DNA of 64,000 nt. It comes from Octopus vulgaris (lineage: Eukaryota). The stretch spans positions 129,208,001 to 129,272,000 of the forward strand of contig OX597819.1 in assembly GCA_951406725.2 (NCBI GenBank), written 5' to 3'. A model generated the notes under the pieces. It was given only the letters and a program-made list of their open reading frames with translations, was not told the origin of the DNA and searched no databases. Shown here piece by piece: positions 60,839-61,625 of the stretch. Position 1 is the first letter of the stretch. Each line of letters starts with the position of its first letter. The position numbers were made by a program, and so were the translations under genes.

Positions 60839-60905
<67 letters not shown>

Positions 60906-60913
60906 CAATTGCA

Positions 60914-61221
60914 GCGTGGGAGGTGTTTATAAGCCATTTAAGAAACACACAAAAGCCGTTCGATTCACTCCAACATTTAAGTTTAATTTGTCAAAATATT
61001 TTCGTCGCTAAAATCCGCGACCTGTTCACTGACAAAGTCCGTGCTGAGATGCAGCACGGACTTTGTCAGTGAACAGGTCTGCGACCAAATTAAACTTAAA
61101 TGTTGGAGTGAATCAGGCTTTTGTGTGTTTCTTAAATGGCTTATAAACACCTCCCACGCAGTTTTTTTCGTTTCAGCACACGATCTCAGATCAAATTACT
61201 TGCTATGCGAGTACATCTCCG

Positions 61222-61225
<4 letters not shown>
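60914..61225. mobile_element. Fold-back hammerhead-bearing element between (TA)n tracts
   Basis: Inverted arms 60914-61046 and 61052-61159, 5-nt loop AGATG. Confidence 0.85.
60987..61036 (-). ncRNA. Minimal hammerhead motif with G3-C8 core pair
   Basis: Minus strand: tttgtca GTGAACA g GTCGC ggatttta GCGAC GAAA ATAT TT tgacaaa; 7-bp stem I, 5-bp stem II, palindromic AATATT stem III. Confidence 0.75.
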
Positions 61226-61276
<51 letters not shown>

Positions 61277-61278
<2 letters not shown>

Positions 61279-61567
61279 ATCTTTTCACTCTGACCGGCAG
61301 ATTTTTAAAATATTTTCTTTGTAACTAAACACTTTTAAAATTCGTAGAATGTGTTTATAAAATTGGTAGAATGTGTTACATAAAACACCTTTTTCTTGGC
61401 TTTCTTGAGAAAATTCTGTAGTTTGTAAGCTATTTGTTGTTTGATTTCTTGCATTTCGGCAATTTCAACCAATCAATGACGTCTATTGAGGTGAATTCCA
61501 TTTCTGCCGTAGTGTTTAGTTACAAAGAAATTATTTTTAAAATCTGCCGGTCAAAGTGAAAAGATCC
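61277..61567. mobile_element. MITE with ~57-bp TIRs in a TA target
   Basis: GGATCTTTTCACT(C/T)TGACCGGCAGATTTT...CTTTGTAACTAAACACT inverted at both ends; TATA on both flanks. Confidence 0.85.
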
Positions 61568-61625
61568 TATATGGCGGTGCCCCAGCATGGCCACAGCTCG
61601 TGAGCTGAAACTAGATAAAATATAA

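What the first reader, a model, noticed from the sequence alone, without database searches (positions are those of the whole stretch)
60914..61159. G3-C8 swapped hammerhead within a 246-bp fold-back
The core GUGAACA is the exact compensatory swap of CUGANGA and is flanked by a 7-bp stem I and 5-bp stem II, so chance is unlikely. The mirrored arm repeats stem I and the core but lacks GAAA and stem III, resuming at CAAATT about 3 nt after the predicted UUU cleavage site. Standard hammerhead descriptors would miss this motif.
Basis: partly seen in the sequence, partly recalled or inferred. Interest (0 to 1): 0.72.

Follow-up and report, generated by a model that had tools for sequence, protein, structure and literature searches.

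The report
Swapped-core hammerhead in Penelope retroelement leader
This hairpin is two short head-to-head copies of the front end of a very common Penelope-type jumping gene, and that front end carries a hammerhead-shaped RNA motif whose central C-G pair is reversed to G-C in thousands of copies; it likely still cuts itself weakly, but cutting has not been shown.

Summary
The motif and the fold-back are real, and both belong to a Penelope-like element (PLE; RT plus C-terminal GIY-YIG) of an octopus genome. The insertion (60904-61224, in (TA)n) is two head-to-head copies of the element's leader, with the PLE tail on one arm. The minus strand at 61036-60987 is a PLE-type type I hammerhead with an extra base after A9, a palindromic stem III and G3-C8 in place of C3-G8. 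G3-C8 holds in 1000 of 1018 young copies; G3 holds in 3599 of 3746 older ones. Sister PLE families in the same genome have the homologous motif with C3-G8, so this is a natural compensatory swap. The mirror arm's gap is unique to this locus and is not a designed feature or a shown cleavage mark. The fold-back itself is predicted to bury the hammerhead. Cleavage is untested; a genomic footprint of cleavage was inconclusive. Natural U3-A8 and engineered G3-C8 are published; my library searches found no natural G3-C8. This scan noted similar swaps in two other genomes. New variant of a known kind.

The parts
60904..61046 (-). Left arm: tail-less copy of the PLE leader (sense on minus strand)
   Evidence: 60914-61046 is 100% identical to the ends of RT/EN-bearing copies L031-L037; end shape
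60987..61036 (-). Type I hammerhead motif: stem I 7 bp, G3-C8 core, extra G, stem II 5 bp with 8-nt loop, GAAA, palindromic stem III, U17; predicted cut between 60994 and 60993
61023..61029 (-). Core positions 3-9 with G3 (61029) and C8 (61024)
   Evidence: no other letter at 5% or more at these two places in four public runs
60935..60937 (-). First ATG of the element's ORF, 92 nt downstream of G3
   Evidence: In tandem copy L099 this ATG opens the frame that is 39% identical over 122 aa to the sister family's N-terminus
61046..61057 (+). Apex: recurrent 5' end of short copies with one extra G, likely a copied cap at the transcript start
   Evidence: 16 of 55 arms end at this base, 14 of those 16 with a G the element lacks there
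61047..61164 (+). Right arm: second leader copy (sense on plus strand) with four small lesions; hammerhead remnant at 61062-61085 lacks GAAA and stem III
   Evidence: alignment; junction unique in the genome
61165..61224 (+). PLE tail (about 60 nt, the start of the ORF), on this arm only
   Evidence: same tail on many copies; continues into the ORF in tandem copies L098, L099
60826..60904 (.). (TA)n target, left
   Evidence: same flank type in most copies
61223..61276 (.). (TA)n target, right

Best explanation
The fold-back is two head-to-head copies of the 5' leader of a Penelope-like retroelement, and that leader carries a PLE-type hammerhead motif whose 3-8 pair is G-C throughout the family, which likely still cleaves weakly as a dimer or with help from the element's protein. 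Shown: element identity, tandem pLTR-ORF-pLTR layout, motif upstream of the first ATG, family-wide G3-C8, C3-G8 in sister families. Inferred: a promoter in the upstream repeat starts a capped RNA about 15 nt before stem I; reverse transcription begins inside the start of the ORF at either of two sites (with or without tail) and runs to the cap; two such cDNAs, or one that snaps back, join head to head and insert into (TA)n. The template was uncleaved, because the copies run through the cut site. In the tandem parent RNA two palindromic stems III would pair to give a slow, conditional ribozyme. At this locus a read-through RNA is predicted to fold as one hairpin and not to cleave. The mirror arm's lesions are local damage or assembly error.
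For: GIY-YIG hit above Pfam cut-off; homologues named reverse transcriptase; tandem layout; 1000 of 1018 G3-C8; 3599 of 3746 older copies G3; 21 of 25 old copies collected by a flank outside the motif are G3-C8, none C3-G8; 1604 matches to a C3-G8 sister pattern, with homologous leaders; on 10 natural rows 98% of cells pair and 5 of 11 pairs change on both sides, 3-8 among them; subfamily differences 0 of 42 structured against 4 of 8 loop II columns; stems I and II form in the leader (pair probability 0.71-1.0) but not in the fold-back (0.08 or less, 28 kcal/mol penalty). PMC11167929: the C3G/G8C double mutant of a PLE hammerhead partly restores cleavage, cleavage needs the protein, and unprocessed RNA is the main substrate.
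Against: No cleavage data. The 6-nt palindrome duplex is only -0.2 kcal/mol and G3 is predicted to wobble-pair with U17. The extra base is G, outside the published H consensus. The young sister family B has long open frames yet carries C at position 9, so an intact core may not be needed for spread. Fixation among copies reflects few source elements, and the subfamily test is partly circular because my patterns fixed some core letters. 4641 copies run unbroken through the cut site and no sharp excess of ends there was shown. The 10 aligned rows are related, so the shuffle control is not a probability. The 5' hot spot also looks like a 3' splice site.
Confidence: 0.72

Rival explanations
1. The motif is a hammerhead relic or a protein-binding fold: the shape is kept, but it no longer cuts.
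For: Copies derive from uncut RNA; sister family B tolerates C9; PMC11167929 found cleavage unnecessary for insertion in vitro and no reads ending at the site; PMC8557442 reports PLE clades without canonical hammerheads.
Against: All other core letters are kept across subfamilies while loop II drifts; a double change that restores exactly the catalytic 3-8 pair is hard to get without selection on that pair.
Confidence: 0.22
2. The fold-back is a functional unit in which the mirror arm was copied from a cleaved RNA, or regulates the ribozyme.
For: The mirror arm resumes 3 nt after the cut site; L059 has a different lesion resuming 2 nt after it; 24 of 30 fetched copies with a break at the cut site are true junctions, against 5 of 30 at +3.
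Against: The arm still holds sequence upstream of the cut site, which a cDNA of the 3' product would lack; the junction is unique; the arm has three other lesions; 12 of 21 two-armed loci keep both motifs whole.
Confidence: 0.04
3. The element is a miniature inverted-repeat DNA transposon and the hammerhead likeness is chance.
For: Short, abundant, palindromic.
Against: Arms are the ends of an RT/GIY-YIG element, apex positions vary, only one arm has the tail; 0 descriptor hits in 200 shuffles.
Confidence: 0.02

Closest known systems
Minimal type I hammerheads of metazoan Penelope-like elements (Cervera and de la Pena 2014, PMC4209133)
   Same: In the pLTR; extra base between 9 and 10.1; G10.1-C11.1; short palindromic stem III; scattered single copies and opposite-strand pairs
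   Different: G3-C8 rather than C3-G8 or the reported U3-A8; extra base G rather than H; 7-bp stem I. No core in the Fig. S3 alignment text I read begins with G
PAc (Poseidon, Anolis) hammerhead and its engineered C3G/G8C double mutant (Frangieh et al. 2024, PMC11167929)
   Same: Same swap; motif at the pLTR-ORF junction; tail defined by two internal RT start sites
   Different: There the swap was engineered; here it is natural and family-wide, and the motif lies wholly upstream of the ATG
Natural U3-A8 hammerheads (Perreault et al. 2011, PMC3088659)
   Same: Natural covariation of the 3-8 pair
   Different: Pyrimidine-purine order kept there, reversed here
Canonical C-terminal-endonuclease PLEs, Neptune-like (as described in PMC8557442)
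   Same: RT then cysteine linker then GIY-YIG; partial tandems; inverted truncated copy; tail at one end; (TA)n targets
   Different: Tail about 60 nt rather than 30-40; clade not tested by a tree

Membership tests
PLE minimal type I hammerhead | Stems I and II around the core | tested here: met
   7 and 5 Watson-Crick pairs; covariation across families
PLE minimal type I hammerhead | Core with C3-G8 (or reported U3-A8) | tested here: not met
   G3-C8 in 1000 of 1018; the pair is kept but reversed, so filed as a variant
PLE minimal type I hammerhead | GAAA, A15.1-U16.1, H17 | tested here: met
   61003-61000, 60995, U17 at 60994
PLE minimal type I hammerhead | One extra base after A9 and a G10.1-C11.1 pair | tested here: met
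   extra G at 61022 (published consensus H), shared with the C3-G8 sisters
PLE minimal type I hammerhead | Palindromic stem III for dimer folding | tested here: met
   6-nt perfect palindrome; predicted duplex weak
PLE minimal type I hammerhead | Located in the pLTR of a PLE | tested here: met
   both repeats of tandem copy L099
PLE minimal type I hammerhead | Self-cleavage after N17 | not testable with these tools
   only contigs were available for the organism's runs; genomic footprint inconclusive
Rfam hammerhead families | Score at gathering threshold | tested here: not met
   0 matches in the window
Penelope-like element | One ORF with RT and C-terminal GIY-YIG | tested here: met
   GIY-YIG 24.2 bits over cut-off 22.6; YVDD motif; RT-named homologues; Pfam itself gave no RT hit
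Penelope-like element | Partial tandem with pLTR, inverted truncated copy, tail at one end | tested here: met
Neptune clade | Cysteine linker between RT and endonuclease, and placement on an RT tree | tested here: inconclusive
   cysteine motif seen; no tree with reference PLEs was built
Non-LTR retrozyme | Head-to-tail tandem units with a hammerhead in each, no ORF | tested here: not met
   copies are dispersed or head-to-head and are ends of a coding element

The most novel reading that the evidence does not exclude
This is an active natural G3-C8 hammerhead, fixed in a PLE lineage with thousands of copies and kept across several related species, and a small share of copies that begin exactly at the cut site record its cleavage in vivo, which would be direct genomic evidence that PLE hammerheads cut their RNA in cells.
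Probability: 0.2. Interest if true: 0.68.

Novelty: new variant of a known kind. Interest (0 to 1): 0.45.

Why it matters
Hammerhead searches usually fix C3-G8, so families like this one (at least 4,700 matches in one genome) are invisible to them; some PLEs scored as hammerhead-free may carry swapped cores. Sister families with C3-G8 and G3-C8 in one genome give a ready natural pair for asking whether PLE hammerheads cut and what for, an open question in PMC8557442 and PMC11167929. The sharp 5' ends with an extra G also support copying from capped, uncleaved RNA.

Tried and rejected
Rfam: no match. Pfam found no RT family on 4 frames. A loose canonical pattern was mostly noise (109 matches against 79 for the reversed control), though it gave leads. 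Of 87 C3 matches in this family, 86 lack G8; of 7 inspected, 2 lacked an intact stem I strand, 1 was a 40-bp tandem array and 4 were single changes. My first descriptor missed family B because of C9 and a bulged stem I. Public runs: no RNA holder listed; contigs cannot show RNA ends and no piece spanned the stretch, so whether the mirror-arm lesions are real or assembly error is open. Cleavage footprint: raw counts of copies with a non-family base at offsets -4 to +4 were 45, 61, 70, 67, 48, 76, 92, 101, 148, with no raw peak at 0; only offsets 0 and +3 were sorted into junctions and point changes, so the question is left open. The all-column test (p 2e-6) was discarded because tail-less copies confound the tail columns; it was redone without them. 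L168 was dropped from the pair count because it misaligned. Lunse et al. (PMC5785218), the most relevant paper on small PLE hammerhead variants, is not held and may already show G3-C8. Supplement file 1 of PMC4209133 was not searchable.

Full report
Observation. The stretch folds as one long hairpin on either strand. The minus strand at 61036-60987 reads as a type I hammerhead: 7-bp stem I, core G3 to A9, one extra G, 5-bp stem II with an 8-nt loop, GAAA, a 2-bp stem III inside a 6-nt palindrome, and U17. A descriptor allowing any Watson-Crick 3-8 pair hit once in the window and 0 times in 200 shuffles. Rfam gave nothing. The mirror arm lacks GAAA and stem III as described, and has three further small lesions.

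What the fold-back is. The left arm is 100% identical to many places in a 2.8-Gb genome. [quoted passage not shown] Homologues are named reverse transcriptase, the best one from Octopus vulgaris, and that protein is encoded at 100% in this genome. L099 shows the repeat-ORF-repeat tandem with a whole motif in both repeats, and the roughly 60-nt tail continues into the ORF in L098 and L099. The first ATG lies 92 nt after G3. So the window's unit is the element's leader plus the first codons. The whole insertion is 60904-61224 between (TA)n tracts, with the tail on one arm. These are the PLE traits listed in PMC8557442 (passages read). Among 40 loci taken in listing order from contig C1 (three matches already held as L033 skipped), 21 have the element's end on both strands and 12 of these keep both motifs whole; L080 has the window's apex with both arms intact. 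The window's deletion junction occurs once in the genome, allowing one mismatch.

Is G3-C8 fixed? With positions 3, 7 and 8 free, 1018 young copies match; 6 lack G3 and 12 lack C8, with no overlap and no C3-G8, leaving 1000 of 1018. Older subfamilies with other loop II sequences give 3746 matches, 147 without G3; C8 was not counted genome-wide for them. Of 30 old loci collected by a flank outside the motif (one is the query's own copy), 25 reach it and 21 are G3-C8, none C3-G8. Four public runs under four organism labels and three studies show no other letter at 5% or more at either position. Three old copies do carry C3-G8; they differ in subfamily marks and one has a G3-C8 mirror arm, so I read them as independent changes, without proof.

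Is the swap compensatory? Family B (57% identical protein) and further families have a homologous motif at the same place in a homologous leader, with the same extra G and C3-G8 (1604 pattern matches, control 0). A metagenome relative at 42% identity also has C3-G8. On 10 natural rows, 98.2% of 110 cells pair, and 5 of 11 pairs change on both sides; the 3-8 pair is C-G in 6 and G-C in 4. This is one event seen in related rows, not four. Across three subfamilies 0 of 42 structured columns differ against 4 of 8 in loop II (p 3e-4) and 11 of 96 loop and flank columns (p 0.015; tail columns dropped); my patterns fixed some core letters, so this is partly circular.

How it likely works. Of 55 arms, 26 start within three bases just upstream of stem I, and 14 of the 16 at the main position carry a G the element lacks there (p 3e-7 against 1 in 4). 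I infer a transcript start with a copied cap; that an RT can copy a cap as an extra G is recalled knowledge, and one search found no PLE paper on it. The site also resembles a 3' splice site, but no shared upstream exon is seen. PMC11167929 (parts 1-2 of 4 read) shows RT starting at two sites inside the ORF start, which defines the tail, with uncleaved RNA as main substrate and cleavage only in the presence of protein. That accounts for short leader-only copies that run through the cut site. In the leader, stems I and II are predicted to form (0.71-1.0); in the fold-back they do not (0.08 or less; 28 kcal/mol), so this locus would be silent as a ribozyme. PMC3884650 (passages) notes that a G3-C8 variant was more active with G17 than with C17; this family has U17, which may avoid a G3-C17 trap (inference).

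Against activity. No cleavage was measured. The dimer palindrome is weak and G3 can wobble with U17. Young family B copies with open frames up to 1312 codons have C9, where older B copies have A9. 4641 copies cross the cut site unbroken. Of 48 with a break there, 24 of 30 fetched are junctions (a few are internal deletions), against 5 of 30 of 101 at +3, about 38 against 17. Raw counts at the other seven offsets show no peak and were not sorted, so the footprint is inconclusive.

Prior knowledge. PMC4209133 (parts 1-2 of 4 and supplement file 2 parts 1-2 of 3 read) defines PLE minimal hammerheads and reports U3-A8; PMC3088659 (passages) reports natural U3-A8; PMC8495972 (passage) and PMC11167929 report partial rescue by the engineered double change. 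Searches found no natural G3-C8; the library is partial and Lunse et al. is not held. PMC6765202, PMC6155905 and PMC6962438 were seen as passages, the 2026 retrozyme preprint as part 1 of 5. Two earlier notes of this scan describe G3-C8 motifs with an extra base behind PLE RTs in other genomes; I did not test them.

Verdict. A real, family-wide, probably compensatory core variant of a known PLE hammerhead inside an ordinary PLE insertion shape. New variant of a known kind; interest 0.45.

Noticed in passing
L058-L097; window 61046-61057: Short copies share a sharp 5' end just upstream of stem I, 14 of 16 with one extra G, likely a copied cap; the site also looks like a branch point plus 3' splice site.
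   Followed up: partly
L143:57-66, L160, L151: Young PLE family B (open frames up to 1312 codons, tandem array on C19) has C at hammerhead position 9, where older B copies have A.
   Followed up: partly
L251-L280: 24 of 30 copies with a break at the predicted cut site begin there, often joined to (TA)n or to an inverted arm; possible trace of cleaved RNA, controls unfinished.
   Followed up: partly
L538, L539, L540: Three old copies of this family carry C3-G8; L538 has a G3-C8 mirror arm.
   Followed up: partly
L032:1660-6981: A 5.3-kb palindrome, 99.9% identical between arms, made of two 5'-truncated copies head to head; L031, L034 and L035 are similar.
   Followed up: partly
L113-L136 (G000:C3:11220651-11222008): A roughly 40-bp tandem array derived from the core, stem II and stem III of this hammerhead.
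   Followed up: no
L168:1673-1730: Canonical C3-G8 minimal hammerhead behind a related RT/GIY-YIG gene on a metagenome contig.
   Followed up: partly
L171-L200: At least two further PLE-like leader families with canonical cores, one with a bulged stem I.
   Followed up: partly
window 61280-61570: Sequence near 61280-61310 and 61530-61570 appears to form inverted ends of another repeat beside the insertion (seen by eye).
   Followed up: no
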